Shown piece by piece: positions 30,857-43,183 of a stretch of 64,000 nt of DNA. The DNA comes from Acidimicrobiales bacterium (GTDB lineage Bacteria; Actinomycetota; Acidimicrobiia; Acidimicrobiales; AC-9). Each line of letters starts with the position of its first letter. Position 1 is the first letter of the stretch. Location: contig DASXCO010000059.1 of the NCBI GenBank assembly GCA_036491125.1, forward strand, positions 4,981 through 68,980, in the 5' to 3' direction. A model generated the notes under the pieces. The model was given only the letters and a program-made list of their open reading frames with translations, was not told the origin of the DNA and ran no database searches. The translations under genes and the position numbers were made by a program.

Positions 30857-31522
30857 TTACTTCTTGGCCGGCTCGAAGTACGGGTTGTCGCCGCTGGCGT
30901 GGTCCGTGACGTCGACCACCGATGCCACCTCGGGAATGGCGTCAATGATCGCCACCTCGATGCCCTGGCTGAGCGTCACCTTGGCGAGACCGCATCCCTG
31001 GCAGCCGCCGCTCAGGCGGAGGTAGGCAGTGGCATCCTCGACGGCCACCAGATCGGCCCGGCCCCCGTGGGCGGCGATGCTGGGATTGATCTGGCTGTCG
31101 AGGACGGCGACCACCCGCTGCGCCACGTCGCCGCTCAGGTCGGCCGGCGGCCGGTCACCCATGGCCGGGCTACCCGTCGGAGGCGGGGAGTTGGGGTTGA
31201 TGATCACCATCCCCGCGTCCTCGCCGGCGCCACTCACGTCGAGGGTGGCCCCGCGGACCTTCTCCACGCTGGCCTCGGGAATCACGACCGTGAGATCGTC
31301 GTCGTGTTGCACCAGATCGTCCGGACCGGCGTCCGCCGCCGCCTCGAAGTACATGTCGTAGGTGTAGTTGGAGCCCGTGACCCCGTTGACCTCCAGCCAG
31401 AGAGCGAGGCGATCGCCGTCGGTCTCCGACGACCGGACGTCGAGCACCATCCCACGAGCCCGATCGCTCACCTTCAGCACGGGCTGGAACTCAGGAGTCT
31501 GCTGCGAGCTCATATCCTCCAT
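30857..31522 (-). CDS. NfuA-like Fe-S cluster carrier: degenerate A-type (HesB-like) N-domain plus Nfu C-domain
   Basis: C-terminal Nfu domain INPSIAAHGGRADLVAVEDATAYLRLSGGCQGCG (CxxC). The N-domain VLKVSDRARGMVLDV...LALWLEVNG lacks the A-type Cys residues. Candidate ATG starts are at 31522 and 31513. Confidence 0.8.
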   Translation of the reverse strand: MEDMSSQQTPEFQPVLKVSDRARGMVLDVRSSETDGDRLALWLEVNGVTGSNYTYDMYFEAAADAGPDDLVQHDDDLTVVIPEASVEKVRGATLDVSGAGEDAGMVIINPNSPPPTGSPAMGDRPPADLSGDVAQRVVAVLDSQINPSIAAHGGRADLVAVEDATAYLRLSGGCQGCGLAKVTLSQGIEVAIIDAIPEVASVVDVTDHASGDNPYFEPAKK

Positions 31523-31531
31523 GATAGGTCC

Positions 31532-32770
31532 GTGGCTCGTCTTCTCCTGATCCTTCCCACAGCCACCTACCGGGCGACCGACTTTCTCGACGCTGCCGCC
31601 GAGGTCGGCGCCGAGGTGGTCGTGGCCTCGGAACGCCGCCAGGTGCTGGCCGAGACGATGAAGGACCGGTTCCTCCAGATCGACCTGCGGCGCCCGGAAG
31701 CGGCCGCGGCATCCATCGTCGCCGCCTCCCGCACACGCCGGATCGACGGCATCGTGGCCGTCGACGACCAGGGGGTCCTGGCCGCGGCGCTGGCTGCCGG
31801 CCAGCTGGACCTCCCTCACAACCCTCCGACGGCGGTCATGGCTACGAGGAACAAGCTGGCCATGCGGGACACCCTGGCTGAGGCCGGCGTGCCGCAGCCT
31901 CGGTACACCAGCGTCGGCCCCAACGACGACGTCGGCGACGCGGCCGCAACGGTGGGCTTTCCGTGCGTGATCAAGCCGACGTCCCTGTCTGCAAGCCGCG
32001 GCGTCATCAGGGCGGACGACCCGCCGGGAGCCAAGCTCGCCGGTGACCGGGTGAGGGCCATCGCGGCCGCCGCCGGCGAGGACCCCGCCGGTCCGCTCCT
32101 GGTGGAGGCCTACGTGGCCGGTGCCGAGGTGGCTGTCGAGGGCCTGCTCAGGGACGGAGTGCTGGAGACGCTGGCCGTGTTCGACAAGCCGGATCCGCTC
32201 GAGGGGCCCTACTTCGAGGAGACGATCTACGTCACGCCGTCCCGGCTGCCGGCGGCGGCCACGGCGGCCGTGGAGCGGACGGCGGCCGCCGCCTGCGCCG
32301 CCATGGGCCTGGTCGAGGGTCCGGTCCACGTCGAGCTGCGGACCGATGGAACGGCGACCTGGCTGATCGAGGTGGCGGCCCGCTCGATCGGGGGCCTGTG
32401 CTCACGCTCGCTGTCCTTCGGGGTCGGCCTCAGCCTCGAGCGGCTGATCGTGGCCCACGCCCTGCGCGAGCCCCTCGAGGGCCTCGCCCGGGAGCGTCGG
32501 GCGGCGGGGGTGATGATGCTCCCGATCCCCGCCCGAGGCCGCCTCGAGACGGTGACCGGTCAGAACGAGGCCCGCCAGGTACAGGGCATCACCGAGCTGG
32601 ACATCTCGATCGCGCCGGGCCGACTGGTTCGTCCGCTTCCCGAAGGCGACCGGTACCTCGGCTTCCTGTTCGCCAAGGGCGATACGCCCGAAGAGGTCGA
32701 GGCCAGCCTGCGCCGGGCCCACGCCCACCTCGACGTACGGGTCGTCGAAGACGACCAGGACGACGATTAG
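31532..32770 (+). CDS. ATP-grasp domain ligase (carboxylate-amine / L-amino-acid-ligase-like)
   Basis: Motifs (V)ARLLLILPTATYRATDF, FPCVIKPTSLSASRGV, LLVEAYVAGAEVAVEG and HVELRTDGTATWLIEVAARSIGG. The start is the GTG at 31532. The upstream part of the ORF-track frame is antisense to the nfu-like gene. Confidence 0.8.
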   Translation: MARLLLILPTATYRATDFLDAAAEVGAEVVVASERRQVLAETMKDRFLQIDLRRPEAAAASIVAASRTRRIDGIVAVDDQGVLAAALAAGQLDLPHNPPTAVMATRNKLAMRDTLAEAGVPQPRYTSVGPNDDVGDAAATVGFPCVIKPTSLSASRGVIRADDPPGAKLAGDRVRAIAAAAGEDPAGPLLVEAYVAGAEVAVEGLLRDGVLETLAVFDKPDPLEGPYFEETIYVTPSRLPAAATAAVERTAAAACAAMGLVEGPVHVELRTDGTATWLIEVAARSIGGLCSRSLSFGVGLSLERLIVAHALREPLEGLARERRAAGVMMLPIPARGRLETVTGQNEARQVQGITELDISIAPGRLVRPLPEGDRYLGFLFAKGDTPEEVEASLRRAHAHLDVRVVEDDQDDD

Positions 32771-32771
32771 C

Positions 32772-34229
32772 GTGGCCAGAGTGAGAGTGCTGGTCATGTC
32801 GACCTACGAGCTTGGTCATCAGCCTCTCCACGTCGCCTCCCCCGCGGCAGCGCTGGCGGGGGCCGGCCACGAGGTGCGCTGTCTGGATCTGTCGGTGCAG
32901 CGGTGGGACGAGCTGGGGCCCGAGGCGGTGGACTGGGCCGACGCGGTGGCCTTCTCGGTGCCCATGCACACCGCCATGCGGCTGGCTCTGGCCGCCGCCA
33001 CCGCGATGCGACAGCGCCGTCCCGAGCTGCCTCTGTGCTTCTACGGCCTCTACGCCCCCATGGCCGGCGACCCCGATGTCGCCGCCCTCGTTGACCGGGC
33101 GATCGCCGGCGAGTACGAGCCGGCCCTCCTCGCCTGGGTCGCTCAGGTTGGTGATGAAGGCCGCCCCGGCGCCAGCCCGGTCACCGTGGAGCTGGGGAGG
33201 GGCCGGTTCTCGGCGCCCGCCCGTCATCTACTCCCCCCGCTCGATCGCTACGCCCGCCTGGCCGTCGACGGTGAGGAGCGCCAGGTCGGGTACGTGGAGG
33301 CCAGCCACGGCTGCGCGCACCGTTGTCGCCACTGCCCCGTGCCGGTCGTCTATGACGGCCGCACCCGCCTCGTCGGGGAGGACGTGATCGTCGCCGACGT
33401 CGCCGACCTGGTGGACATGGGCGCGCGGCACATCACATTCGGCGACCCCGACTTCCTGAACGGCCCGCATCACTCGCTCAGGGTGGTGCGGGCGATCCAC
33501 GACCGCTTCCCGCAGCTCACTTTCGACTGCACGACCAAGGTGGAGCACATCCTTGCGCACCACCAGATCTGGGAGGAGATGGCGGCCGCCGGGTGCCTGT
33601 TCGTGGTGTCGGCGTTCGAGTCTGTGAACGACGAGATCCTGGCCCGCCTGGACAAAGGCCACACGGCCGCCGACTCCTCCGCCGCCATCCAGATCGTGCG
33701 GGCTCACGGGATCGAGCCCCGTCCGTCGTGGCTGCCCTTCACGCCTTGGACATCGGTGCAGGACGTGGCGGACATCGTGGACTTCGTCGCCCGCCACGAC
33801 CTCGTGCCCAACGTCGACCCGGTCCAGTACAGCATCCGGCTCCTCGTACCCCAGGGCTCCCTGATCCTGCGTGACGCCGAGTTGCCACTCGGCCCCTACG
33901 ACCCCGATCTCCTGAGTTACACGTGGCGATCTCCCGACGCCGGGGTGGACGCGCTCCAGGCCGAGCTGGCGTCCATCGCCGAGCGGGCGGCTGCCGACGG
34001 CGAGGCAGCGGGGACCACGTATCTGCGCATCCGGCGCGCTGTCAACGAGGCCGTGAACGGTCGAAGTCACGGCGAGCGCACGGGCGACACCGACAACGGC
34101 GCCGACGACATGACGGCGCTCGTTGGCGCCCGATCGGGAGCGGAACGACCCCGCCTGACCGAGCCGTGGTTCTGCTGTGCAGAGCCGACCGCCGGCCAGC
34201 TCGGCTCACTCGGCCAGCTGTCCGACTGA
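32772..34229 (+). CDS. Radical SAM enzyme with an N-terminal B12-binding-like domain and a C-terminal CCAEP tail
   Basis: CX3CX2C motif SHGCAHRCRHCPV (C181/C185/C188). The N-terminal Rossmann-like domain is VRVLVMSTYELGHQPLHVASPAAAL...AVAFSVPMHTA. The C-terminus reads ...EPWFCCAEPTAGQLGSLGQLSD. The start lies 1 nt after the ATP-grasp stop. Confidence 0.85.
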   Translation: MARVRVLVMSTYELGHQPLHVASPAAALAGAGHEVRCLDLSVQRWDELGPEAVDWADAVAFSVPMHTAMRLALAAATAMRQRRPELPLCFYGLYAPMAGDPDVAALVDRAIAGEYEPALLAWVAQVGDEGRPGASPVTVELGRGRFSAPARHLLPPLDRYARLAVDGEERQVGYVEASHGCAHRCRHCPVPVVYDGRTRLVGEDVIVADVADLVDMGARHITFGDPDFLNGPHHSLRVVRAIHDRFPQLTFDCTTKVEHILAHHQIWEEMAAAGCLFVVSAFESVNDEILARLDKGHTAADSSAAIQIVRAHGIEPRPSWLPFTPWTSVQDVADIVDFVARHDLVPNVDPVQYSIRLLVPQGSLILRDAELPLGPYDPDLLSYTWRSPDAGVDALQAELASIAERAAADGEAAGTTYLRIRRAVNEAVNGRSHGERTGDTDNGADDMTALVGARSGAERPRLTEPWFCCAEPTAGQLGSLGQLSD

Positions 34230-34289
34230 CCGTCGCGGAAAACCGCGGTAGATACCGCCCCGGCGGCCACGGGCACGACTACCGTTGCC

Positions 34290-35057
34290 GTGATGGCGCG
34301 GTCGCGACGCAACGGCAAGCAGCCCGATGACGTGCACGAGTGGGTGAGCTTCGAGGATCCCGACGAGGACCGGACGTGGGTGTTCGACGTCACGTTCCTC
34401 CTGAGCTCGTGGAGCTGCATCTTCGGTCGCGGCTGCCAGGGCGTCCTCACAGCGGCCGCTCCCGAGCTGGGCCAAGGCTGCTGCTCCTACGGCGCCCACT
34501 TCACCGACGACGAGGACGCAGCCCGCGTGGAGCGGGTGGCGGCCACGCTTGGACCAGACCAGTGGCAGCTCGCCCATCGAGCGCGGTCTGGTCCGCTCAA
34601 GCGCACCAGGTCGGGCGACCTGGCGACGAGGATCGTCGACGGGGCCTGCATCTTCTTGAACCGGCCCGAGTTCGCAGGGGGCGCCGGCTGTGCCCTCCAC
34701 CTCGCCGCCCTGGAGCAGCACCGGTCCCCGATGGACCTGAAACCCAACGTGTGCTGGCAGCTGCCATTGCGACTCGAGGACGACGCCAGCGACGACGGGC
34801 ACGTGACGACGACCGTCGGGCAGTGGGAGCGCCGGCACTGGGGCGCCGGCGGGGCCGAGTTCCACTGGTGGTGCACCGAGGCTCCGGATGCCTTCGTCGG
34901 CGCCGAGCCAGTGTTCCGCACGCTGCGCGACGAGCTCATCGCCCTCGTCGGGCGGGATCCCTACGATCGCGTGAGCCGCTACCTCACTGACCGCTACTTC
35001 AACGGCAGCGCCTACCCGGCTGTACCGGTGCCCCACCCCGCCGTTCGCCGCCGCTGA
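34290..35057 (+). CDS. Cys-rich conserved protein, YkgJ/UPF0153-like putative Fe-S or zinc-binding protein
   Basis: 255 aa with 8 Cys: WSCIFGRGC, GCCSYGA, DGACIFLNRPEFAGGAGCALH, KPNVCWQLPL and WWC. The composition is protein-like (W, F, D and E are frequent). Confidence 0.7.
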   Translation: MMARSRRNGKQPDDVHEWVSFEDPDEDRTWVFDVTFLLSSWSCIFGRGCQGVLTAAAPELGQGCCSYGAHFTDDEDAARVERVAATLGPDQWQLAHRARSGPLKRTRSGDLATRIVDGACIFLNRPEFAGGAGCALHLAALEQHRSPMDLKPNVCWQLPLRLEDDASDDGHVTTTVGQWERRHWGAGGAEFHWWCTEAPDAFVGAEPVFRTLRDELIALVGRDPYDRVSRYLTDRYFNGSAYPAVPVPHPAVRRR

Positions 35058-35096: not shown

Positions 35097-35282
35097 TCAG
35101 CCTTCCTCGTCGAGCTCCTCGGCCTCGGCCAGACACCACGACGCGTGGCCCTGCCGAGGGTCGGCTCCGCACTCCGGGCACTGCTCTGCAGCGCCATCCG
35201 CGTCACGCACCGTGAGTTGACCCTGCTGTCCGAGCTTCAACGTGCGTGCCTCTTCGAAGCGCCGGTGACGTCCCTTCTTCAC
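35097..35282 (-). CDS. Small hypothetical protein with a CxxC...HxxxC zinc-knuckle-like motif and an acidic tail
   Basis: (V)KKGRHRRFEEARTLKLGQQGQLTVRDADGAAEQCPECGADPRQGHASWCLAEAEELDEEG. The GTG at 35282 was chosen as the start; a GTG at 35333 is also possible. There is no homology evidence. Confidence 0.4.
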   Translation of the reverse strand: MKKGRHRRFEEARTLKLGQQGQLTVRDADGAAEQCPECGADPRQGHASWCLAEAEELDEEG

Positions 35283-35388
35283 GAGCCGCTCCCAAGTGTC
35301 GACAGGTGCTGTGGCGACAGTGTACCCCGCCACCCTTGCGATCAAGCTCCCCCGGAGCCGCCCAGGAAACTCGCTAGGGTCTGGCGCG

Positions 35389-35628
35389 ATGCCCGAGGAG
35401 CTTGACGTTGGAGCCATGATAGAGCGTTTTCGGCAGCGGGCCGCGGCAGTGCGCAGCCGGGGCCTTCCGCCCGTCGAGGGCGCCGAGCGCCGACGCTTCG
35501 CCGAGCAGGCCCAACGCGACTTCATGGACTTCGCCATGATCGGCGACGCCGACGGGACGCTCGACGACGGGATCCTTACGCTGCGCATCGATCTGCGCCC
35601 CCCGGACGGCGAGGGAGCCCGGGGCTAG
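35389..35628 (+). CDS. Small hypothetical protein (79 aa)
   Basis: MPEELDVGAMIERFRQRAAAVRSRGLPPVEGAERRRFAEQAQRDFMDFAMIGDADGTLDDGILTLRIDL. The composition is protein-like, and the ATG at 35389 lies within the ORF-track frame. I do not recognise the family. Confidence 0.4.
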   Translation: MPEELDVGAMIERFRQRAAAVRSRGLPPVEGAERRRFAEQAQRDFMDFAMIGDADGTLDDGILTLRIDLRPPDGEGARG

Positions 35629-35728
35629 AGGCGCACGGTCGGTCGGGTGGCGGGCGGGCGCCGTCGTGGCGGCCGTCCCGGGTCCCCCGTGCGGGGGAGC
35701 TCGATCGGGGCGACTTCCGCTCCCGAGG

Positions 35729-36280
35729 CTACGGTCGGACGATCTCGTCGACGATGCCGTAGCTGCACGCGTCCTCCGCAGACAGGTGTCGAGCGAGGCG
35801 CACGTCCGCCTCGACGTGCTCGAAGGGCTGGCCGGTCGCCTCGGCCAGGCGGTGCAGATAGCTCCTCACCCGGGTCTCGAGATCGGTCGCCCGCCGGTGG
35901 AGGTCGGTCGCCGCCCCCGAGAGCTCGGCGGTCGGCTCTCGCAGGTGGATGCGCCCGAGGGCGCCGATGCGCCGGTGGGCGCAGACGGCGAGCACGCCCG
36001 CGATGGTGCCGCCGACGGTGCTGGCGACCGTGGCGTTGACCTCGACGCCGAGGACATCGATGGTGTCGATGAGGATGAAGGCGACGTCCAGCGAGTCGGA
36101 CTCGGCGTTCAGGCGCAGCTCGACCGGGTCGTCGCCGAGGGCGTCCAAGGTCATGACGGTGGCCGCTGCGTCGCTGGCCCGTGCCGCGTCGATTGTGCCG
36201 CTGAGGAGGATGATCCTCCGGTCGAGCAGCGCCCGCTCGGCCGACAGGTGAGACCCCTCGGAGGGAGACGGCCCCGTCAC
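35729..36280 (-). CDS. Divergent ClpP-fold (S14-like) protein that probably lacks the Ser nucleophile
   Basis: By eye it aligns along its full length with the neighbouring ClpP (LLDRRIILLSGTID, SAEDACSYGIVDEIV). However, INSPGG is replaced by LNAESDS, and the GMSA nucleophile block aligns with VGGT. The GTG overlaps the XRE stop (GTGA). Confidence 0.7.
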   Translation of the reverse strand: MTGPSPSEGSHLSAERALLDRRIILLSGTIDAARASDAAATVMTLDALGDDPVELRLNAESDSLDVAFILIDTIDVLGVEVNATVASTVGGTIAGVLAVCAHRRIGALGRIHLREPTAELSGAATDLHRRATDLETRVRSYLHRLAEATGQPFEHVEADVRLARHLSAEDACSYGIVDEIVRP

Positions 36281-36663
36281 GGCTCGCCTGCTCGGCCCGA
36301 TGCGGGACCGTCGCCCCGACCGGCGCCGTGCTCGTCGGGCGCGCCGAGACGCCAGTCGATGACCTGGTCGACGGCGGCGGCGTAGCGCTCGAGGCTCGAG
36401 AGGCGGACGTCACCCTGGCCCGACTCGAGGCGGGCCACGGCCGATTGTGATGTGCCCATGCGGGCCGCAACCTCGGTCTGGGACATCCCCACCTCCTGCC
36501 GCCTCGCCACCAGCGACTCGGCCAGCGCCCGCCGACGACGGGCCATCTCGCCGAAGCCGGGCAGGTAGCGATCGTGGCGCCGCTCAGCCAAGGGTGCCCT
36601 CGCCAACGGTGCGCTCGCCAACGGTCGATCCGTACGCCGCCGGACGACGTCCTTCCATGTCAA
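36277..36663 (-). CDS. XRE-family helix-turn-helix transcriptional regulator
   Basis: HTH segment GMSQTEVAARMGTSQSAVARLESGQGDVRLSSLERYAAAV. The TTG start at 36663 is preceded by the SD sequence AAGGAG (36680-36675). An alternative ATG lies at 36546. Confidence 0.75.
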   Translation of the reverse strand: MTWKDVVRRRTDRPLASAPLARAPLAERRHDRYLPGFGEMARRRRALAESLVARRQEVGMSQTEVAARMGTSQSAVARLESGQGDVRLSSLERYAAAVDQVIDWRLGAPDEHGAGRGDGPASGRAGEP

Positions 36664-36703
36664 AGATGATAACTCTCCTTTGATATCGCATGTATGGTAT
36701 CAA
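36660..36703. promoter_or_regulatory. AT-rich divergent promoter/operator region with two overlapping inverted repeats
   Basis: TCAAAG-N12-CTTTGA (36660-36683) and TTGATA-N12-TATCAA (36680-36703). TANNNT-type -10 candidates are TATGGT (plus strand, 36693-36698) and TACCAT (minus strand, 36700-36695). Confidence 0.4.
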
Positions 36704-36775
36704 CCGTCGGTGAAACCGCCGGCAGGCCCGAGAGCGACGCCGGCCCGGGAGGTCGGCCCAGGACGTGAGGTGATC

Positions 36776-37405
36776 ATGGCGTCGTACCACTCCCTGATAC
36801 CGACTGTCGTCGACAGCGGACCACGCGGCGAGCGAGCGTTCGACATCTACTCGCTTCTGCTCCGGGAACGGATCGTCTTCCTCGGTCAGGAGGTGGACGA
36901 CCAGATCGCCAACCTCCTGATCGCCGAGATCCTCTACCTCGACGCCGAGAACCCCGACAAGGACATCTATCTGTACATCAACTCGCCCGGCGGTCTCGCC
37001 TACGCCGGGATGGCGATCTACGACGTGATGCAGCACGTCCACTGCGACGTGGCAACCATCTGCGTCGGCATGGGCATGTCGGCGGCGGCGATGATCCTCG
37101 CCGGCGGTGCCGTCGGCAAGCGCTCTGCCCTGCCGAACTCCAAGGTCATGATCCACCAGGGGTCGGCCGGGGCCCGAGGAGCGCCGCGCGACATGGAGAT
37201 CCAGCTCCAGGAGGCGCTGGCCACCACCAAGCGCATGGCCGAGATCCTCGCCCACCACACCCACCAGCCGATCGAGCGGGTCGAACGCGACATCGACCGG
37301 GACTTCTACATGACGGCGGAGGAAGCTCGGGCCTACGGCATCATCGACGACATCATCGCCCCCCGCCGGGGCGTGAGCGCGTTGACGGCGGCAGCTGCGT
37401 CGTGA
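36776..37405 (+). CDS. clpP: ATP-dependent Clp protease proteolytic subunit
   Basis: Motifs YINSPGG, GMGMSAAAMILAGG (Ser), VMIHQG (His), ERDIDRD (Asp) and YGIIDDII. The SD sequence GAGGTG lies 5 nt upstream of the ATG at 36776. Confidence 0.92.
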   Translation: MASYHSLIPTVVDSGPRGERAFDIYSLLLRERIVFLGQEVDDQIANLLIAEILYLDAENPDKDIYLYINSPGGLAYAGMAIYDVMQHVHCDVATICVGMGMSAAAMILAGGAVGKRSALPNSKVMIHQGSAGARGAPRDMEIQLQEALATTKRMAEILAHHTHQPIERVERDIDRDFYMTAEEARAYGIIDDIIAPRRGVSALTAAAAS

Positions 37406-38190
37406 CGGGGCGACCCGCCCGGTGCGACGTGTGCGGGGATGTCGTGGACTCCCTCCACCCGTGGGACGTACAGACGTGTTCGTGTGGTCGGCTCACGCTG
37501 AGCCGTGGACCTAAGCATCGTCGGGTCCAGTGGCGGGCGGAACCGGGGGCGGGGTGGACGGATCTCTGTGGCGAGCTCGACCCGGCCGGTGGAGCCGAGG
37601 GCACGGACAGGTTGCGTCAAGTCCTGCTGATCTCCGGGAGTCTGCGCAATGGCTCGACCAACACGGCACTGCTCCGCACCAGTAAGGCTGTCGCACCTCC
37701 GCGCCTCGCGACCGTGCTCTACGACGGCCTCGACGAGCTTCCTCATTTCAATCCGGACCACGACGTCTCGCTGCTACACCCCGCCGTGGCCGACCTTCGG
37801 GCCCGGATCGCGAGTGCGGATGCGGTCCTGCTCTCGACTCCGGAGTACGCGGGAGGGCTTCCCGGGTCGTTCAAGAACCTGTTGGACTGGACCGTCGGAG
37901 GCGGCGAGATCTATGGCAAGCCAGTGGCGTGGGTCAACGCCTCCGCCTCCCCCACGGGTGCGGCCGACGCCTACGAGTCGCTTCGCAAAGTGCTCGGCTA
38001 CGTCGGTGCTGTCGTCGTCGAGCCCGCCTGCGCCCACATCCCCGTGACCAGGAATGCCATCGGCGCGGATGGCCACGTCGCCGATCCGTCGATTCGCGCC
38101 CGCCTGGGCGACGTCCTGGGGGCGCTCCTTGCCCACCTCGAGCACGGTCGAGCCGTGGGCGTCGCCGGGCAACCGCCGACGACGGCCTAG
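37402..38190 (+). CDS. NAD(P)H-dependent FMN reductase-family protein with an N-terminal CxxC...CxCG zinc-ribbon-like extension
   Basis: FMN_red core: VLLISGSLRNGSTNTAL and LSTPEYAGGLPGSFKNLLDW. The N-terminal 70 aa read RCDVCGDVVDSLHPWDVQTCSCGRLTLSRGPKHRRVQW. The GTG overlaps the clpP TGA. An alternative TTG start at 37612 would remove the extension. Confidence 0.8.
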   Translation: MTGRPARCDVCGDVVDSLHPWDVQTCSCGRLTLSRGPKHRRVQWRAEPGAGWTDLCGELDPAGGAEGTDRLRQVLLISGSLRNGSTNTALLRTSKAVAPPRLATVLYDGLDELPHFNPDHDVSLLHPAVADLRARIASADAVLLSTPEYAGGLPGSFKNLLDWTVGGGEIYGKPVAWVNASASPTGAADAYESLRKVLGYVGAVVVEPACAHIPVTRNAIGADGHVADPSIRARLGDVLGALLAHLEHGRAVGVAGQPPTTA

Positions 38191-38198
38191 CCCTCAGC

Positions 38199-40139
38199 TC
38201 ATCCGGTGCTGACGCGAGCCGGCCGAGGTCCGGTCGCAGCCACGGCCGCCTCGACTGCGCTCCCGTCGATCGTCTCCTTCTCGAGCAGTAGATCGACGAC
38301 GTGGTCGAGCGCCGGGCGGTGCTCGGTCAGCAGCCTGGTGGCCCGCTGCTCGGCTTCGCGCAGTAGCCGGGCGACCTCCTCGTCGATGAGCTGCTGAGTG
38401 CCCTCCGCGTACGGCCGACCCCGACCGTCGGCGCTCAGGTAGTTCGGAGTCCCCGAGGCGAAGCCGACCGGCCCCAGCCGATCGCTCATGCCGAAGTCAC
38501 GGATCATTCGGGTCGCCAGCTCGGTGGCACCGGCGAGGTCGTTGCTCGCCCCGCTGGAGGCCTCGCCCAGCACGAGGAGCTCGGCGGCCCGACCACCGAG
38601 GCGGACGGCCAGGGAGTCGAGCAGGTAGCTCTCGGGGTACAGATGGCGCTCGTCGACCGGTAGCTGCTCGGTGATCCCGAGGGCCATGCCCGAGGGGAGA
38701 ATGGTTACCTTGGCGACCGGGTCGGCGTGCTCCGACAGCACCGCCACCAGAGCATGTCCGCTCTCGTGCACCGCGACGGATCGCTTCTCGTCTGGGAGCA
38801 GGGCGTTGGACGCGTCGCGGCGCCCGAGCAGGATGCGATCACGGGCGTCGGAGAAGTCGGCGGCGGTGATCACCTCTCGATCGGCCCTCACGGCGACGAT
38901 TGCCGCCTCGTTCACCAGATTGGCGAGGTCGGCACCGGAGAACCCGGGCGTCAGGCCGGCTACCACGTCGAGGTCGACATCCGGCGCCAGCCGACGCGCC
39001 TTGATGTGCACCGCCAGGATCTTGGCCCGCTCGGCCCGGTTGGGCAGGGGGATCTCCACGGTTCGGTCGAAGCGCCCGGGGCGAAGCAGGGCGGGATCGA
39101 GGGTCTCGGGTCGGTTCGTCGCCGCCATCACGACGACCCCCGTAGCCGGGTCGAACCCGTCCATCTCGGCCAGGAGCTGGTTCAGGGTCTGCTCCCGCTC
39201 GTCGTTGGACGCGAACAGCGCCGCGCCACGTTTGCCGCCGATGGCATCGATCTCGTCGATGAAGATGATCGACGGCGCCCGCTTGCGGGCTGCGGCGAAC
39301 AGATCCCGGACCCGGGACGCCCCCACCCCCACGAACAGCTCGACGAAGCTCGAGCCGGTGATGGCGAAGAACGGCACCTCGGCCTCGCCCGCCACCGCCC
39401 GGGCGAGGAGGGTCTTGCCCGTGCCAGGGGGCCCGACCATGAGCACGCCGCGGGGTCCGATGGCGCCGGCCCGGGTGTACCGGTCGGGGTGGGTGAGGAA
39501 GTCGACGACCTCGCTCACCTCCTGCTTGACCCCTTCGTAGCCCGCCACATCGGCGAACCGGGTCGGAGGGCGCTCCTCGTCGTAGAGCTTGGCGCGGGAG
39601 CTGCCGATGCCCATGATCCCGCCCGCCGCCCGGGCCGTGCGCCGGCCCAGCAGCAGAAACAGACCGAGGAAGAGCACGAACGGCAGGAACGACAGGATCG
39701 TGGGCAGCACCGAGCTGCTGGGGCCCACGCCGGTGATGGCTACACCGTGGGCTTGGAGGGTCGGGGCGAGCTGATTGTTGCCGAGGGCCAGGGGGATCTG
39801 GGAGCTGTAGTGCTGTCCGGCCTTCCCCTTCAACGTGCCCGTGACCTTGCCGTTGGGGTCGATGGTGGCCGTGGACACCTGATTGGCATTGACCTTGTTG
39901 ACGAAGGAGGAGTAGTTCAGGTTGGTGACCGGCGCGGCGCTGCCCATCGTCGGTATGAACAGCAGGCCGACGGTGGCGACGATCCCGACCACGAGGAACC
40001 AGATCCGCCAGCGGGGAGGCGGCGGTGGGGTCGGTCGCTTCGGCGGGTCGTTCGGCGGGCCCGGCTTCGGTGGGTTGGAGTGGTGGCGGGTCACCAAGAG
40101 AGGTCCCCTATCGGGCGGATGGTCCAACCTACCCGGCAA
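38199..40139 (-). CDS. ftsH: ATP-dependent zinc metalloprotease FtsH
   Basis: Two TM segments, Walker A GPPGTGKT, Walker B IIFIDEIDA and the zinc site HESGHAL. The exact start in the Pro-rich N-terminus is uncertain. Confidence 0.93.
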   Translation of the reverse strand: MPGRLDHPPDRGPLLVTRHHSNPPKPGPPNDPPKRPTPPPPPRWRIWFLVVGIVATVGLLFIPTMGSAAPVTNLNYSSFVNKVNANQVSTATIDPNGKVTGTLKGKAGQHYSSQIPLALGNNQLAPTLQAHGVAITGVGPSSSVLPTILSFLPFVLFLGLFLLLGRRTARAAGGIMGIGSSRAKLYDEERPPTRFADVAGYEGVKQEVSEVVDFLTHPDRYTRAGAIGPRGVLMVGPPGTGKTLLARAVAGEAEVPFFAITGSSFVELFVGVGASRVRDLFAAARKRAPSIIFIDEIDAIGGKRGAALFASNDEREQTLNQLLAEMDGFDPATGVVVMAATNRPETLDPALLRPGRFDRTVEIPLPNRAERAKILAVHIKARRLAPDVDLDVVAGLTPGFSGADLANLVNEAAIVAVRADREVITAADFSDARDRILLGRRDASNALLPDEKRSVAVHESGHALVAVLSEHADPVAKVTILPSGMALGITEQLPVDERHLYPESYLLDSLAVRLGGRAAELLVLGEASSGASNDLAGATELATRMIRDFGMSDRLGPVGFASGTPNYLSADGRGRPYAEGTQQLIDEEVARLLREAEQRATRLLTEHRPALDHVVDLLLEKETIDGSAVEAAVAATGPRPARVSTG

Positions 40140-40216
40140 AGGTCATCAGCACCGCGCCGAGTCACCAGTGGAGGTGGTAGCGACCGGAGCGGTGGTCGGC
40201 GACCTCGAGCCGGTCC

Positions 40217-41851
40217 ATGCGTGGCATCCAGGACCCTCTTGGGCTCCGACGCTTCCGGCTACCGTGCCGGATCGTGCTCCCTGGGCAGGTCCATGACCAA
40301 CCGTGGTGGAAGTCCGCCGTCGTCTACCAGGTCTATCCGCGTTCGTTCCAGGACTCCGACGGTGACGGTGTCGGAGACCTCGAAGGTATCCGTCGTCGCC
40401 TCGACCACCTGGCGTGGCTGGGCGTCGACGCCGTCTGGTTGTCGCCGTTCTTTCGTTCGCCGATGGCCGATTTTGGTTACGACGTCGCCGACCACTGCGC
40501 CGTGGACCCGCTGTTCGGGACGCTGGCCGACTTCGACAACCTTGTCGCCCGGGCGCACGAGCTCGGCATCCGGGTCCTGATCGACTGGGTTCCCAACCAC
40601 ACCAGCGACCGCCACCCCTGGTTCATCGAGTCGCGGTCGTCCAGATCGTCATCGCGACGCGACTGGTACGTCTGGCGGGACGGGCGCCCCGACCAGCCGC
40701 CGAACAACTGGCAGGCCGCCTTCTCCGAGGGCCCCACGTGGAGCTGGGACGAGACGACCCAGCAGTGGTACCTCCACCTGTTCCTGCCCGAACAGCCGGA
40801 CCTCAACTGGGCCAACCCACGGGTGGTCGAGGCCATGCAGACGGTGCTGCGATTCTGGCTCGACCGCGGGGTGGACGGCTTCCGGGCCGACGCGGTGCAC
40901 GCCATCGGGAAGGATCCGGCCCTTCCCGACGCCCCCGTGAAGTGGAGGGGCATGCCCTGGTCAGCCCTCAACGACCAGCAGAGCACGCACGACATCCTGC
41001 GGCAGCTGCGGCGGCTGATCGACTCCTATCCGGGAGATCGGGTCATGGTCGGCGAGGTCTTTCTCCTGTCGACGGGGGCGGTGGCCCGCTATTACGGCCG
41101 CGGTGACGAGCTGCACCTCGCTTTCAACTTTCCTCCTCTCTTCGCCCCGTGGGAGGCGGACGCGTGGCGCCATCGGATCGACCGCGTCGTCGAGGAGCTC
41201 GATCCGCGGGGAGCGTGGCCCACATGGGTGCTGTCGAACCACGACAATCCGCGTCACCGCACGCGCTATGGCGGCTCGGAGCAGCGCGCCCGTGCCGCCG
41301 CCGTGCTGCTGCTCACGTTGAGGGGTACGCCGTTCATCTACGCAGGCGAGGAGCTCGGCCTCGAGAACGCCGCGATCCCCGCTGAGCGGCGTCTCGATCC
41401 TGGAGGACGCGACGGCTCGCGGGCCCCGTTGCCGTGGGACGGCTCACCCGACCACGGGTGGCCCTCGGGCGACCGGCGCCCGGGAGCCGCTCCTTGGTTG
41501 CCGTGGCCGCCGGAGGCCGAGGTCCGCAACGTGGCTGCCCTGCAGGACGATCCGACGTCCATCCTCAACCTCTACCGCCGGCTCGTGGCCACTCGTCGAC
41601 GGTCGCCCGCCCTGTCCACCGGGTCCTGGTCGCCGCTCCCGAGCCCGCCCGACGTGCTCGCCTACCGGCGGGCTGCGGACAACGATCGGCGGCTGGTCAT
41701 CGTCAACTTCGGCGACGGTGATGCGTCCGTCCCCGCGCCGGATGCGGCCTGGCGGGTAGAGGTGTCCACCGAGGCGGGGACCGACGGGGAGCCGTACATG
41801 GGCATGGTTCCCGGGCCGGGCGCCGTTGTCCTCACCGACGAACCCTCCTGA
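40217..41851 (+). CDS. GH13 alpha-glucosidase / oligo-1,6-glucosidase-like enzyme
   Basis: Motifs WWKSAVVYQVYPRSFQDSDGDGVGDL, DAVWLSPF, DWVPNHTSD, GFRADAV and SNHDN. An alternative GTG start lies at 40274. Confidence 0.88.
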   Translation: MRGIQDPLGLRRFRLPCRIVLPGQVHDQPWWKSAVVYQVYPRSFQDSDGDGVGDLEGIRRRLDHLAWLGVDAVWLSPFFRSPMADFGYDVADHCAVDPLFGTLADFDNLVARAHELGIRVLIDWVPNHTSDRHPWFIESRSSRSSSRRDWYVWRDGRPDQPPNNWQAAFSEGPTWSWDETTQQWYLHLFLPEQPDLNWANPRVVEAMQTVLRFWLDRGVDGFRADAVHAIGKDPALPDAPVKWRGMPWSALNDQQSTHDILRQLRRLIDSYPGDRVMVGEVFLLSTGAVARYYGRGDELHLAFNFPPLFAPWEADAWRHRIDRVVEELDPRGAWPTWVLSNHDNPRHRTRYGGSEQRARAAAVLLLTLRGTPFIYAGEELGLENAAIPAERRLDPGGRDGSRAPLPWDGSPDHGWPSGDRRPGAAPWLPWPPEAEVRNVAALQDDPTSILNLYRRLVATRRRSPALSTGSWSPLPSPPDVLAYRRAADNDRRLVIVNFGDGDASVPAPDAAWRVEVSTEAGTDGEPYMGMVPGPGAVVLTDEPS

Positions 41852-41864
41852 CGGCGCCCGCTGC

Positions 41865-43064
41865 TCAGCCGGCGATCGGCCGGTGTGAGCGAGCCTCGAG
41901 CACGAGCTCGCCCCGACCCCCGACCGCAAGCGCCCCCTCCCCTGCCAGCAGCTGGCGCAGCGGCTCGCCCACGAGCGTCCGCCGCCAGCCGCTGGCCAGA
42001 CGGGACTCGCCACCGCCCCGCAGCAGCGCGTGCAGGTCGGCCCTGGTGGCGAGAAGGGGACCGTCGATCCGCAGCTCGGCGGCCCGCTGTGCCAGCCAGG
42101 CTCCGGCCAGCGTCGCCACTGGACGCAGGCGGCGCTCGACCTGATCGATCGGCGGCTGCCGGAGGGCGCCATCACTGAGCTCGAAGCCGGCCCGCACCGC
42201 GTCGAGGAGCCCGGCCTCGGCCGCCCCCCTGGCCCGGCGCGGGTCGAGACCCCGGACCGCGGCCAGCTCGGCCGCGGTGGTAGGCGGCCGCTGGGCGATC
42301 GCCACCACCGCCAGGTCGGGGAGGACGAACCGCGCCGGTCGATCGGTCGCCGCGGCACGGCGCTCCCGCCAGGCGGCCACGGTCTGAGCCACGGCTCGTG
42401 ACTCACCCTTGAGCTGGCGGGCCTCCTTCAGTCGCCACCACGCTTCGTTGGGCTCGACCCGCCGGCTGGGGCGGGACAACAGGATCTGGCACTCGCCCTC
42501 GGCCCAGGTCAACCGGTCGAGGCCATCGAGCTCGGTGACCAGCGCTCCATGCAGGTCCAGCAGGTGGGCGGCGTCCGACGCCGCGTACTCGCGTTGGGCG
42601 GCGCTCAGGGGGCGTCGGGTCCAGTCGGTGAGGCGGTCCCCCTTCGCCAGCCGCTGGCCGAGCAGGTGCTCGACCAGGGTCGTCAGCGACGGAGCCGAGA
42701 GGCCGAGGAAGCCCGCCGCCAGCTGGGTGTCGAACAAGCGACGGGGCTTGGTCCCGCACGCCAGCTCGAGCACTTCGAGATCCTGGTCGGCGGCGTGGGC
42801 CACGGCGAGCCCGGGCCCGTCGAGCACCTGGCGCAATCCGGTGAGGTCGACCCGGTACGGATCGACCAGGGCCACTCCCCCGGGCCAGACCAGCTGAACC
42901 AGGGCCAAGTGAGGGAAGTACGAACGTTCACGATGGAACTCGGTGTCGAAGCCGTACACCGACGCGGCTCCGATCTGGCCCACCACCTCGTCCATGGCGG
43001 GCTGCGTGTCGACCCAGCTCGGTTCGGCCAGATCGCTCAAGCCTTCACGAACCCGCGTCGACAC
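41865..43064 (-). CDS. rnd: Ribonuclease D (DEDD 3'-5' exonuclease plus HRDC domain)
   Basis: Motifs YGFDTEFHRERSYFPHLALVQL and YAASDAAHLLDL, with an HRDC-like C-terminal half. Confidence 0.85.
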   Translation of the reverse strand: MSTRVREGLSDLAEPSWVDTQPAMDEVVGQIGAASVYGFDTEFHRERSYFPHLALVQLVWPGGVALVDPYRVDLTGLRQVLDGPGLAVAHAADQDLEVLELACGTKPRRLFDTQLAAGFLGLSAPSLTTLVEHLLGQRLAKGDRLTDWTRRPLSAAQREYAASDAAHLLDLHGALVTELDGLDRLTWAEGECQILLSRPSRRVEPNEAWWRLKEARQLKGESRAVAQTVAAWRERRAAATDRPARFVLPDLAVVAIAQRPPTTAAELAAVRGLDPRRARGAAEAGLLDAVRAGFELSDGALRQPPIDQVERRLRPVATLAGAWLAQRAAELRIDGPLLATRADLHALLRGGGESRLASGWRRTLVGEPLRQLLAGEGALAVGGRGELVLEARSHRPIAG

Positions 43065-43183
43065 TGGTGGCCACCACCGACTCGACGTCCCAGGCGTCGC
43101 TGTCGAGCCGATGTCGGATCATGGCGCCCGACGCTACCGTACGCCGAGGCGGCCCTCGCTAGGCCTCGATGGCGGGGGTCGGC

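What the first reader, a model, noticed from the sequence alone, without database searches (positions are those of the whole stretch)
31532..35057. Uncharacterised three-gene module: ATP-grasp ligase, CCAEP-tail radical SAM enzyme and 8-Cys YkgJ-like protein
Seen: three co-directional genes separated by gaps of 1 nt (TAG 32768-32770 / GTG 32772) and 60 nt. (1) A 412-aa ATP-grasp ligase (FPCVIKPTSLSASRGV, LLVEAYVAGAEVAVEG, WLIEVAARSIGG) whose N-terminus looks like that of an L-amino-acid ligase. (2) A 485-aa radical SAM enzyme with an N-terminal Rossmann/B12-binding-like domain, CX3CX2C at C181/C185/C188 (nt 33312-33335), and a C-terminus reading ...EPWFCCAEPTAGQL. (3) A 255-aa protein with 8 Cys (WSC-x5-C, GCC, DGACIFLN...GC...C), the pattern of CxxCxxCC/UPF0153-type putative Fe-S/Zn proteins. 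Recall only, not verified: RefSeq uses the product name 'CUAEP/CCAEP-tail radical SAM (seleno)protein' for a family defined by this tail. I know of no assigned substrate or pathway for it. Inference: ligase plus rSAM plus a small Fe-S protein is the architecture of a cofactor, small-molecule or peptide-modification pathway. The module sits head-to-head with an Nfu-type Fe-S carrier at the edge of a housekeeping block. I found no short precursor-peptide ORF in the gaps. A small-molecule substrate, or the enzyme's own tail, therefore seems more likely than a classical RiPP.
Basis: partly seen in the sequence, partly recalled or inferred. Interest (0 to 1): 0.8.

Follow-up and report, generated by a model that had tools for sequence, protein, structure and literature searches.

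The report
Ligase and radical-SAM pair beside Nfu
A widespread but unstudied two-gene operon pairs an amino-acid ligase with a radical SAM enzyme, a sister of the enzyme that builds the arsenic antibiotic arsinothricin, that ends in a Cys-Cys tail (Cys-selenocysteine in many relatives); it sits back-to-back with an iron-sulfur carrier gene and probably makes an unknown unusual amino acid or dipeptide.

Summary
The three ORFs, their motifs and their spacing are exactly as described. The radical SAM (rSAM) enzyme is a true member of NCBIfam NF040546, 'CUAEP/CCAEP-tail radical SAM (seleno)protein'. That family is named but uncharacterised, and its nearest characterised relative is ArsL (33% identity).

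The module boundaries need correcting. In 63 related loci from Actinomycetota and Chloroflexota, the L-amino-acid-ligase-type ATP-grasp lies directly upstream of the rSAM in 52. The divergent Nfu gene is present in 58. The 8-Cys gene follows in only 8 of 67, and it stays beside Nfu in Acidimicrobiales genomes that lack the pair. It belongs to the DUF3109/Rv0495c family, not YkgJ.

So the real unit is Nfu <-> ATP-grasp -> rSAM. A natural ATP-grasp–rSAM fusion protein supports this. About 45% of relatives carry an in-frame UGA at the second tail Cys, followed by a covarying SECIS-like hairpin, so they are true Cys-Sec forms.

Best reading, inferred and not shown: ArsL-like transfer of the 3-amino-3-carboxypropyl group of SAM onto a soft nucleophile held by the flexible CC/CU tail. 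The ligase then condenses the product into a dipeptide, and Nfu supplies the cluster. No ars genes lie nearby, no precursor peptide is present, and cobalamin use is unlikely.

The parts
30857..31522 (-). NfuA-like Fe-S carrier, 221 aa. It has an N-terminal Cys-less A-type-like domain and a C-terminal NifU domain with CQGC. It is divergent from the ATP-grasp, with start codons 9 nt apart.
   Evidence: Pfam NifU scores 68.4 bits. The best NCBIfam match is NfuA TIGR03341 at 90.5 bits, below its cut-off of 269. It is present in 58 of 63 related loci, and divergent upstream in 53. It is also retained in genomes that lack the pair.
31532..32770 (+). L-amino-acid-ligase-type ATP-grasp enzyme, 412 aa.
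   Evidence: Pfam ATP-grasp_4, LAL_C2 and ATPgrasp_N all match. The best PDB sequence hit is 3VOT BL00235, E 3.9e-34. The AF2 model has pLDDT 85, and the best fold hits are BL00235 and YwfE/BacD at TM 0.82. It lies directly upstream of the rSAM in 52 of 63 loci. It is fused to the rSAM in P0510.
32772..34229 (+). CCAEP-tail radical SAM enzyme, 485 aa. It has a Rossmann-like N-domain, a radical SAM core, a poorly conserved linker of about 60 aa, and a conserved tail.
   Evidence: NF040546 scores 547.3 bits against a cut-off of 500. ArsL NF040542 scores 275.3 against a cut-off of 450. It is 33% identical to P. amygdali ArsL over residues 3-395. In the AF2 model the best fold hit is AprD4, and residues 432-485 have pLDDT below 50.
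33312..33335 (+). CX3CX2C motif (C181, C185, C188) for the SAM-binding [4Fe-4S] cluster.
   Evidence: Read directly from the sequence. The three Cys are invariant in alignments A1 and A2, including ArsL.
34161..34187 (+). Tail motif EPWFCCAEP. The vicinal C468-C469 codons (TGC TGT) are at 34173-34178.
   Evidence: In related loci the second position is Cys in 38 and an in-frame UGA in 32. The UGA forms are followed by a covarying SECIS-like hairpin.
34290..35057 (+). 8-Cys protein of the DUF3109/Rv0495c family. It is an adjacent backbone gene and is not part of the conserved module.
   Evidence: It follows the rSAM in only 8 of 67 loci. In L085-L087 it lies directly beside NifU with no ligase or rSAM present. 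PF11307 is the only Pfam match: 23.5 bits in the local Pfam copy, while the homologues are labelled PF11307 'Rv0495c'.

Best explanation
The functional unit is a two-gene operon: an L-amino-acid-ligase-type ATP-grasp followed by a CCAEP-tail radical SAM enzyme. The two genes are translationally coupled (1-nt gap) and divergently paired with a general NfuA-like Fe-S carrier. The downstream 8-Cys gene is only a neighbour.

Proposed mechanism, step by step:
1. The rSAM binds a [4Fe-4S] cluster through C181/C185/C188, together with SAM. This rests on motif and family membership.
2. [quoted passage not shown] This gives methylthioadenosine and a 3-amino-3-carboxypropyl (ACP) radical or Fe-C species. 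This step is inferred from homology only.
3. The conserved RPRLTEPWFC[C/U]AEP tail sits on a flexible tether of about 60 residues. It carries a soft nucleophile on its vicinal Cys-Cys (Cys-Sec in about 45% of relatives) into the active site, where the nucleophile is alkylated. The nucleophile could be a thiophilic metalloid or a chalcogen (As, Sb, Se or S); its identity is unknown. The product would be a 2-amino-4-X-butanoate, an analogue of methionine or glutamate. This step is inferred.
4. The ligase condenses that amino acid with a second amino acid into a dipeptide, as all physiologically understood L-amino-acid ligases do. This is inferred from fold, gene coupling and the natural fusion.
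5. Nfu delivers or repairs the cluster. This is inferred from conserved adjacency and from the role of NfuA with radical SAM clients.

Confidence in the anatomy (pair plus Nfu; third gene outside) is about 0.9. Confidence in ACP-transfer chemistry is about 0.4.
For: Family membership and kinship with ArsL:
- NF040546 scores 547 bits against a cut-off of 500. ArsL is the second-best model at 275 bits, E 1e-81, covering residues 6-401.
- Identity to an annotated ArsL is 33%, with shared invariant residues across both domains.
- ArsL performs ACP transfer to As(III) held by its C-terminal Cys tail. An ArsL tail mutant reduced to 'MCCA' is the most active variant, so a vicinal CC-A tail is chemically sufficient.

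Tail:
- The motif is invariant across phyla, and the tail region is disordered in the AF2 model.
- The second Cys is replaced by UGA in 32 of 70 loci. A hairpin follows in which 95.4% of cells pair, 6 of 7 pairs show compensatory changes, and 0 of 500 shuffles reach the observed values. This marks a nucleophilic or redox-critical position.

Linkage:
- The ATP-grasp is directly upstream in 52 of 63 loci, and Nfu is present in 58 of 63.
- The reverse look-ups, starting from the ATP-grasp, recover the same trio.
- The rSAM and ATP-grasp identity matrices correlate at r = 0.82.
- P0510/L094 is an 850-aa ATP-grasp–rSAM fusion, again divergent from NifU.

Ligase:
- LAL-specific Pfam domains are present.
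- Fold similarity to BL00235 and BacD is TM 0.82. BL00235 makes Met-Gly and Met-Met.

Hints of soft-metal or organometallic chemistry:
- SaoD/DsrE-like genes (NF040913, 191 bits) flank the module in 14 loci. DUF169 genes flank it in 15 loci, in several arrangements.
- One bona fide family member, P0391, is fused to a MerB C-Hg lyase domain, with a second MerB gene nearby.
- Haft groups the CU motif of this family with HgcA and SAO proteins.
Against: - No enzymology exists for this family, and 33% identity does not guarantee the unusual S-C(gamma) cleavage.
- The ArsL HMM score is far below its cut-off, and the RCCLKC tail is absent.
- No ArsM, ArsQ, ArsN, ArsR, ArsC or ArsB homologue lies in any of 88 loci or in the 64-kb window. 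Arsenic is therefore not supported by context, and no candidate substrate is identified.
- No exporter, resistance gene or regulator is conserved with the pair, which is unusual for an antimetabolite pathway.
- The family is very large and highly conserved, with about 55-65% identity across phyla. That could equally fit a housekeeping modification.
- Nfu is also present in genomes without the pair, so it is not a dedicated partner.
- MerB fusion is a single case: 1 of 150 representatives, and none in 94 loci.
- Some loci have the rSAM without the ligase (L013, L021, L057, L075, L077, Thermomicrobium roseum). Others have the ligase with Nfu but no rSAM next door (L083, L084).
Confidence: 0.4

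Rival explanations
1. A canonical radical SAM enzyme. It makes 5'-deoxyadenosyl radical and abstracts a hydrogen atom from an unknown small molecule, possibly the ligase's dipeptide. The C-terminal Cys-Cys/Cys-Sec would act as a redox-active swinging arm, like the GCUG tail of thioredoxin reductase. It would supply or remove electrons or hydrogen atoms rather than carry a substrate atom.
For: - PF04055 and CX3CX2C are present, as in thousands of canonical enzymes.
- The best structural neighbour, AprD4, is a canonical 5'-dA enzyme.
- Cys/Sec interchange is typical of redox-active sites.
- No metalloid-handling genes are conserved nearby.
- That vicinal CC/CU C-terminal tails are redox shuttles in TrxR-type enzymes is my own knowledge and was not tested here.
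Against: - The closest characterised relative by a wide margin is ArsL, at 275 bits. The next family scores 49 bits.
- ArsL's Cys tail binds substrate rather than acting as a redox centre.
- The recurrent SaoD-like and DUF169 neighbours and the MerB fusion point to a bound soft atom rather than pure redox.
Confidence: 0.28
2. A protein or peptide modification system. The ATP-grasp ligates an amino acid to, or cyclises, a protein or peptide. The rSAM modifies the same macromolecule or its own conserved tail, and the product is not a free small molecule.
For: - ATP-grasp enzymes include protein ligases such as RimK and LysX. Weak hits to RimK (35.5 bits) and LysX (30.5 bits) exist.
- The tail motif of about 15 residues is extremely conserved, and both proteins are highly conserved across phyla.
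- The module sits in a housekeeping neighbourhood in the window.
Against: - The ligase has the LAL-specific N- and C-terminal domains, and its best sequence and fold matches are free-amino-acid ligases.
- No short ORF lies in any gap here.
- Intergenic gaps in other loci are 1-56 nt, which leaves no room for a precursor gene.
- No conserved third protein other than Nfu is found.
Confidence: 0.12
3. An isofunctional or near-isofunctional arsenic enzyme. The pair would make hydroxyarsinothricin or arsinothricin and ligate it into a Trojan-horse dipeptide, analogous to phosphinothricin peptides.
For: - Homology to ArsL.
- The ArsL 'MCCA' tail variant is highly active on As(III) species.
- From my own knowledge, characterised LALs such as BacD, RizA and TabS make antimetabolite dipeptides.
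Against: - No arsM, arsQ, arsN, arsR, arsC or arsB lies within 10 kb in any of 88 loci or in the window. True arsL sits inside ars islands.
- The ArsL HMM score is below its cut-off.
- The family is far larger and more diverse than ArsL: 1 ArsL among the 150 nearest representatives.
Confidence: 0.07
4. A three-gene operon in which the 8-Cys protein is a dedicated Fe-S or Zn partner of the ligase and rSAM.
For: - The genes are co-directional, with a 60-nt gap and no detectable terminator.
- The arrangement is conserved in 8 Acidimicrobiales loci.
- Other lineages place different Cys-rich proteins (DUF169, SaoD-like) at the flank.
Against: - The gene is absent from 59 of 67 loci.
- In L085-L087 the same gene sits against NifU with no ligase or rSAM present, so its linkage is to the backbone or to Nfu.
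- The family (Rv0495c) occurs in mycobacteria. From my own knowledge, this rSAM family is not known there.
Confidence: 0.08

Closest known systems
ArsL, arsinothricin biosynthesis radical SAM enzyme (NCBIfam NF040542, RCCLKC-tail)
   Same: - The same two-domain architecture: a Rossmann-like, non-cobalamin N-domain plus a radical SAM core.
- 33% identity over about 390 residues, with many shared invariant residues.
- A C-terminal tail with vicinal cysteines.
- It is the second-best HMM match, E 1e-81.
   Different: - The score of 275 is below the cut-off of 450.
- The tail is EPWFC[C/U]AEP on an extra linker of about 60 residues, not RCCLKC.
- It has two thiols or selenols rather than three, and about 45% of members are selenoproteins.
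- It is partnered with an L-amino-acid ligase and Nfu instead of ArsM, ArsQ and ArsN, and it is never found in an ars island.
- Its substrate is unknown.
CUAEP/CCAEP-tail radical SAM (seleno)protein, NCBIfam NF040546
   Same: The window protein is a full-length member at 547 bits with the defining tail.
   Different: Nothing differs at the sequence level. The family has a name but no function: Haft 2022 calls it uncharacterised. No paper in the searchable library mentions its linkage to the LAL-type ligase and Nfu.
L-amino-acid ligases (BL00235, BacD/YwfE, RizA, TabS)
   Same: The domain set is the same (ATPgrasp_N, ATP-grasp_4, LAL_C2). Fold similarity to BL00235 and YwfE is TM 0.82, and the sequence E-value against BL00235 is 3.9e-34.
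   Different: Identity is only about 25-30%. The protein is below every NCBIfam cut-off. It is paired with, and in one case fused to, a radical SAM enzyme, which is not described for any known LAL.
NfuA with radical SAM clients (E. coli NfuA with LipA and MiaB)
   Same: It has an N-terminal degenerate A-type domain and a C-terminal Nfu domain with CxxC. It sits beside radical SAM genes, and in L092 it also sits beside MoaA and LipB-LipA.
   Different: It scores 90 bits against a cut-off of 269, so it is not an NfuA equivalog. The client relationship is inferred from gene order only.
C-terminal vicinal-Cys tails of MerA (Hg(II) hand-off) and the GCUG tail of thioredoxin reductase
   Same: A flexible C-terminal arm ends in a vicinal Cys-Cys or Cys-Sec pair that shuttles a soft metal or redox equivalents into a buried active site. 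This comparison is from my own knowledge and was not tested here.
   Different: The fold and chemistry are unrelated. This is an analogy only.

Membership tests
CUAEP/CCAEP-tail radical SAM (NF040546) | Whole-protein HMM score at or above the curated cut-off of 500 bits | tested here: met
   547.3 bits, E 2.7e-164, covering model positions 1-467 of 468.
CUAEP/CCAEP-tail radical SAM (NF040546) | C-terminal C[C/U]AEP motif | tested here: met
   EPWFCCAEP at residues 464-472. Relatives have CC in 38 loci and C-UGA in 32.
CUAEP/CCAEP-tail radical SAM (NF040546) | Radical SAM CX3CX2C cluster motif | tested here: met
   C181, C185 and C188. PF04055 scores 55.3 bits.
ArsL (NF040542) | HMM score at or above 450 bits | tested here: not met
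   275.3 bits.
ArsL (NF040542) | C-terminal RCCLKC As(III)-binding motif | tested here: not met
   The tail is CCAEP, and no third tail Cys is present.
ArsL (NF040542) | Location in an ars island with arsM, arsQ and arsN | tested here: not met
   No homologues at E < 1e-4 in 88 loci or in the window. Compare the true arsL locus.
ArsL (NF040542) | S-C(gamma) cleavage of SAM with ACP transfer | not testable with these tools
   This needs an anaerobic enzyme assay measuring MTA against 5'-dA.
Cobalamin-dependent radical SAM enzymes | Cobalamin-binding N-terminal domain | tested here: inconclusive
   PF02310 scores 33.8 bits against a cut-off of 32.1. However, the best fold match is the non-cobalamin AprD4, and a review states that ArsL homologues and AprD4 do not bind cobalamin.
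L-amino-acid ligase (ATP-grasp) | ATP-grasp core plus the LAL-specific N- and C-terminal domains | tested here: met
   PF13535 scores 96.7 bits, PF18603 66.8 bits and PF18130 47.3 bits, all above their cut-offs.
L-amino-acid ligase (ATP-grasp) | Fold closest to solved LAL structures | tested here: met
   Foldseek rank 1-3 are BL00235 (TM 0.82-0.86) and YwfE (0.82).
L-amino-acid ligase (ATP-grasp) | ATP-dependent dipeptide formation from free amino acids | not testable with these tools
   This needs a biochemical assay.
NfuA (TIGR03341) | Equivalog HMM score at or above 269 bits | tested here: not met
   90.5 bits. The NifU domain itself is present at 68.4 bits.
YkgJ / UPF0153 CxxCxxCC (PF03692), for the third gene | Match to the family profile | tested here: not met
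   None of 12 homologues matches, even at E <= 1.
DUF3109 / Rv0495c (PF11307), for the third gene | Match to the family profile | tested here: inconclusive
   In the local Pfam copy the score is 23.5 bits against a cut-off of 33.5, and 7 of 12 homologues match weakly. In the precomputed newer version, all 120 listed homologues carry PF11307, named Rv0495c.
RiPP biosynthetic cluster | Adjacent short precursor-peptide gene | tested here: not met
   No free-standing ORF of 20 aa or more lies in the gaps. Intergenic gaps in related loci are 1-56 nt.

The most novel reading that the evidence does not exclude
The CC/CU-tail family is a widespread carbon-chalcogen or carbon-metalloid bond-forming ACP transferase. 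For example, it could make selenohomocysteine-type, homocysteine-type or organo-Sb/As amino acids from a tail-bound Se, S or metalloid atom. With its dedicated ligase it would produce a previously unknown seleno-, thio- or organometalloid dipeptide in soil Actinomycetota and Chloroflexota. That would be a second natural reaction class for ArsL-type 'non-canonical' radical SAM chemistry, and far more common than arsinothricin synthesis.
Probability: 0.2. Interest if true: 0.85.

Novelty: new variant of a known kind. Interest (0 to 1): 0.62.

Why it matters
ArsL is currently the only PF04055 enzyme known to cleave SAM at the S-C(gamma) bond and build a carbon-heteroatom bond with the ACP group.

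Its much larger sister family has no known function. That family has more than 7,900 database proteins at E <= 1e-10, 403 representatives at 50% identity with E <= 1e-30, and at least 594 matching stretches among GTDB species genomes. About half of its members are selenoproteins.

Three results turn a bare family name into a concrete, testable two-enzyme pathway:
- The family travels with a dedicated L-amino-acid ligase and is sometimes fused to it.
- It sits with an Nfu carrier.
- It never sits with ars genes.

If the chemistry is ArsL-like, this would reveal a new class of non-proteinogenic amino acid or dipeptide, possibly one containing selenium or a metalloid. It would also broaden the scope of non-canonical radical SAM catalysis. 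If the chemistry is not ArsL-like, the Cys-Sec swinging tail on a radical SAM enzyme is itself a new mechanistic device.

Tried and rejected
- Arsenic-island context: tblastn with ArsM, ArsQ, ArsN1, ArsR, ArsC, ArsB and aquaporin from a real arsL locus found nothing in 88 loci or the window.
- MerB neighbours: none in 94 loci or the window. The MerB fusion is a single case.
- Precursor peptide: no free ORF of 20 aa or more lies in the gaps.
- Regulatory RNA: no Rfam family and no tRNA in the 64-kb window. The intergenic regions are too short for a riboswitch.
- Promoter and terminator scan of 30.7-35.8 kb: there were no promoter-like sites. The only terminator-like site is at 30.82 kb, in the gap between the D-Ala-D-Ala carboxypeptidase gene and Nfu.
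- Hairpin in the 60-nt gap: not better than shuffled sequence, z = -1.1. Co-transcription of gene 3 is neither shown nor excluded.
- Anti-phage defence: no PADLOC hits.
- Solved structures: none found for gene 3. DUF169 gave only chance-level hits.
- Plasmid collection: it holds no close homologue of the ligase. The only CUAEP rSAM there, on the Thermomicrobium roseum megaplasmid, lacks the ligase and Nfu.
- Other conserved neighbours: clustering all flank genes of 80 loci found only DUF169, SaoD-like genes and lineage-specific synteny. The neighbours of the five loci with neither partner were uninformative.
- Literature: searches for CUAEP, CCAEP, ACP radical with ATP-grasp, and radical SAM with selenocysteine and ACP found no characterisation.

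Full report
**Observation.** The window is 70-74% G+C. Its nearest named relatives are Acidimicrobiales MAGs.
- ATP-grasp ORF: GTG 31532 to TAG 32768-32770, 412 aa.
- rSAM ORF: GTG 32772 to TGA 34227-34229, 485 aa, 1 nt after the ligase stop.
- 8-Cys ORF: 34290-35057, after a 60-nt gap.
- CX3CX2C is C181/C185/C188, nt 33312-33335. EPWFCCAEP is residues 464-472, nt 34161-34187.
- No free-standing ORF of 20 aa or more lies in the gaps.
- The Nfu gene (30857-31522, minus strand) starts only 9 nt from the ATP-grasp start codon.

**Family assignments.**
- The rSAM scores 547.3 bits on NCBIfam NF040546, 'CUAEP/CCAEP-tail radical SAM (seleno)protein' (cut-off 500). The recalled RefSeq name is therefore correct.
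- The second-best model is ArsL (NF040542) at 275.3 bits, below its cut-off of 450. Everything else scores below 50 bits.
- Pfam finds Radical_SAM and a marginal B12-binding domain in the rSAM. In the ligase it finds ATP-grasp_4, LAL_C2 and ATPgrasp_N.
- The ligase's best solved relative is the L-amino-acid ligase BL00235 (3VOT), E 3.9e-34. An AF2 model (pLDDT 85) superposes best on BL00235 and YwfE/BacD at TM 0.82. BL00235 makes Met-Gly and Met-Met.
- The rSAM model (pLDDT 74.5) matches the non-cobalamin enzyme AprD4 best. Its last 50 or so residues are disordered.
- A 2026 review states that AprD4 and ArsL homologues do not bind cobalamin.

**What the conserved unit is.** A scan of GTDB species genomes returned at least 594 related stretches. 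The 80 best came from Solirubrobacterales, Thermoleophilia, Acidimicrobiia, Microthrixaceae and Chloroflexota MAGs and were fetched with 10-kb flanks.
- Of 63 loci with at least 2.5 kb upstream, the ATP-grasp lies directly upstream on the same strand in 52.
- Nfu is present in 58 of the 63, and divergent upstream in 53.
- Three loci keep Nfu <-> rSAM without the ligase. Five have neither partner.
- The 8-Cys gene follows the rSAM in only 8 of 67 loci, all Acidimicrobiales that share the window's wider synteny.
- Starting from the ligase instead recovers the same NifU <-> ATP-grasp -> rSAM trio in Egibacteraceae and other lineages.
- Called genes there show Nfu/ligase gaps of 1-56 nt and ligase/rSAM gaps of 10-49 nt.
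- Pairwise identity matrices of the rSAM and the ligase correlate at r = 0.82. Correlations with Nfu are lower, at 0.66-0.70.
- One representative, P0510 (850 aa, locus L094), is a continuous ATP-grasp(LAL)–rSAM fusion with a WFCCAAPTS tail. It is again divergent from NifU.

**The third gene.** Its homologues carry PF11307 (DUF3109, named 'Rv0495c' in the newer Pfam). None matches YkgJ/PF03692. In three Acidimicrobiales genomes the backbone runs aroQ-aroB-aroK-aroC-prepilin peptidase-NifU <-> Rv0495c-like, with no ligase or rSAM. The pair is therefore an accessory insertion between Nfu and this gene, and Nfu is a general carrier rather than a dedicated one. Deletion of Rv0495c in M. tuberculosis perturbs redox homeostasis.

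**The tail.** RPRLTEPWFC[C/U]AEPT is almost invariant across phyla.
- In 70 loci with a readable tail, the second position is TGC or TGT in 38 and an in-frame TGA in 32. The reading frame continues as AEPTEGQFG... after the TGA.
- The UGA forms carry a 7-bp hairpin (GAGGGCC-AGUUC-GGCCCUC) starting 15 nt downstream. In it, 95.4% of cells pair, 6 of 7 pairs show compensatory changes, and 0 of 500 shuffles reach the observed values. The Cys forms lack it.
- These are therefore genuine Cys-Sec proteins.
- Among the 150 nearest 50%-identity representatives, 48 have a CC tail, 37 stop at W[FY]C, 1 is ArsL and 64 are fragments.

**Relation to ArsL.**
- An annotated ArsL from a Pseudomonas amygdali plasmid is 33% identical over residues 3-395. 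It shares invariant residues in both domains, but it lacks the linker of about 60 residues and ends in RCCLKC.
- ArsL cleaves SAM to MTA and an ACP radical or Fe-C species. It alkylates As(III) held by its C-terminal cysteines.
- An ArsL tail mutant reduced to 'MCCA' is the most active variant, so a vicinal CC-A tail suffices for that chemistry.
- True arsL lies among arsR, arsC, arsQ, arsM and arsN genes. None of these has a homologue in any of the 88 loci or in the window.

**Other hints.**
- A SaoD/DsrE-like gene (NF040913, 191 bits) lies convergent downstream of the rSAM, or beside Nfu, in 14 loci.
- DUF169 flanks the module in 15 loci, in at least three arrangements.
- Haft links the SaoD branch to metal transporters and groups the CU motif of this family with HgcA and SAO proteins.
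- DUF169 also sits beside HgcA-like and MerR genes in Nitrospina.
- One full family member, P0391 (623 bits), is fused to a MerB alkylmercury-lyase domain, with a second MerB gene 4 kb away. This is a single case.
- In L092, Nfu is also flanked by MoaA and LipB-LipA. That fits Nfu acting as a carrier for radical SAM clients.

**Interpretation.**
- *Shown:* the gene anatomy, family membership, conserved ligase–rSAM–Nfu linkage, the fusion protein, and the Cys/Sec tail with a SECIS-like element.
- *Inferred:* ArsL-like ACP transfer onto a soft atom carried by the tail; ligation of the resulting 2-amino-4-X-butanoate into a dipeptide; and cluster supply by Nfu.
- I put the chemistry at about 0.4.
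- The main rival is canonical 5'-dA chemistry with the CC/CU tail as a redox arm, at about 0.28.
- Protein or peptide modification, a strictly arsenic-specific role, and the original three-gene reading are each less likely.

**Novelty.** The rSAM family is catalogued but uncharacterised. Haft 2022 is the only paper I found that mentions it. No paper in the searchable library describes its coupling to an L-amino-acid ligase and Nfu. Relative to the arsinothricin system and to known LAL pathways, this is a new variant of a known kind.

Noticed in passing
L001, L003-L007, L010, L011 and others (33 loci), about 15-34 nt after the in-frame TGA of the rSAM tail: A conserved 7-bp hairpin with an AGUUN loop follows the UGA only in the Sec forms. 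It shows compensatory changes in 6 of 7 pairs and behaves like a bacterial SECIS element. The window's Cys form keeps 5 of the 7 pairs (34191-34209).
   Followed up: yes
L094:8001-10553 (protein P0510): A natural 850-aa fusion of the LAL-type ATP-grasp and a CCAEP-like rSAM. It is divergent from NifU, with start codons 1 nt apart. P0493 looks like a second, closer fusion, or a read-through, on a truncated contig.
   Followed up: yes
Protein P0391 (JGI 3300047160, 8.3-kb contig; no DNA held): A bona fide CCAEP-tail rSAM (623 bits) is fused C-terminally to a MerB alkylmercury-lyase domain. A second MerB gene, a sulfotransferase and a carbamoyltransferase are nearby. This is the only such case seen.
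   Followed up: partly
L085:5323-6762, L086:5331-6747, L087:5188-6780: In Acidimicrobiales genomes that lack the ligase/rSAM pair, NifU and the Rv0495c-like 8-Cys gene are themselves divergent neighbours. The gap is 6 nt in L085, 31 nt in L086 and 132 nt in L087. This hints that the Rv0495c family may be linked to Fe-S metabolism.
   Followed up: partly
window 35700-43100: This block is absent from the otherwise syntenic loci L030 and L085-L087, where the small genes after the Rv0495c-like gene are followed directly by the flavin reductase (window 43187-43741). The block holds a ClpP-like gene (35729-36280, minus), an XRE regulator (36280-36591, minus), ClpP (36680-37405, plus), a DUF7695 zinc-ribbon fused to an FMN reductase (37402-38190), FtsH (38202-40097), an alpha-amylase-family enzyme (40217-41848) and an RNase D-like gene (41868-43040).
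   Followed up: partly
L002-L008, L022-L044 (SaoD-like); L015, L048, L052-L080 (DUF169): Two small Cys-rich protein families recurrently flank the module. One is the SaoD/DsrE-like family NF040913 (14 loci). The other is DUF169 (15 loci, in several orientations). Neither is in the window.
   Followed up: partly
L092:3922-14291: In one 3.4-Mb genome, NifU is surrounded by radical SAM clients. The order is MoaA, NifU, ATP-grasp, rSAM, LipB, LipA, then pyruvate dehydrogenase E1/E2/E3.
   Followed up: no
window 35097-35628: Two small conserved genes overlap on opposite strands. One is about 70-80 aa on the minus strand with a CPECG zinc-ribbon-like motif. The other is about 80-100 aa on the plus strand. 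Both are conserved in 7-8 Acidimicrobiales loci and have no Pfam match.
   Followed up: no
L088:7935-9371 (Thermomicrobium roseum DSM 5159 megaplasmid NC_011961): A cultured organism carries a CUAEP rSAM that is 44% identical. Its annotation stops at ...SWFC, so it is probably a Sec form. It sits next to a divergent PLP aminotransferase, an MFS transporter and a GNAT, with no ligase or Nfu. It is a possible experimental handle.
   Followed up: partly
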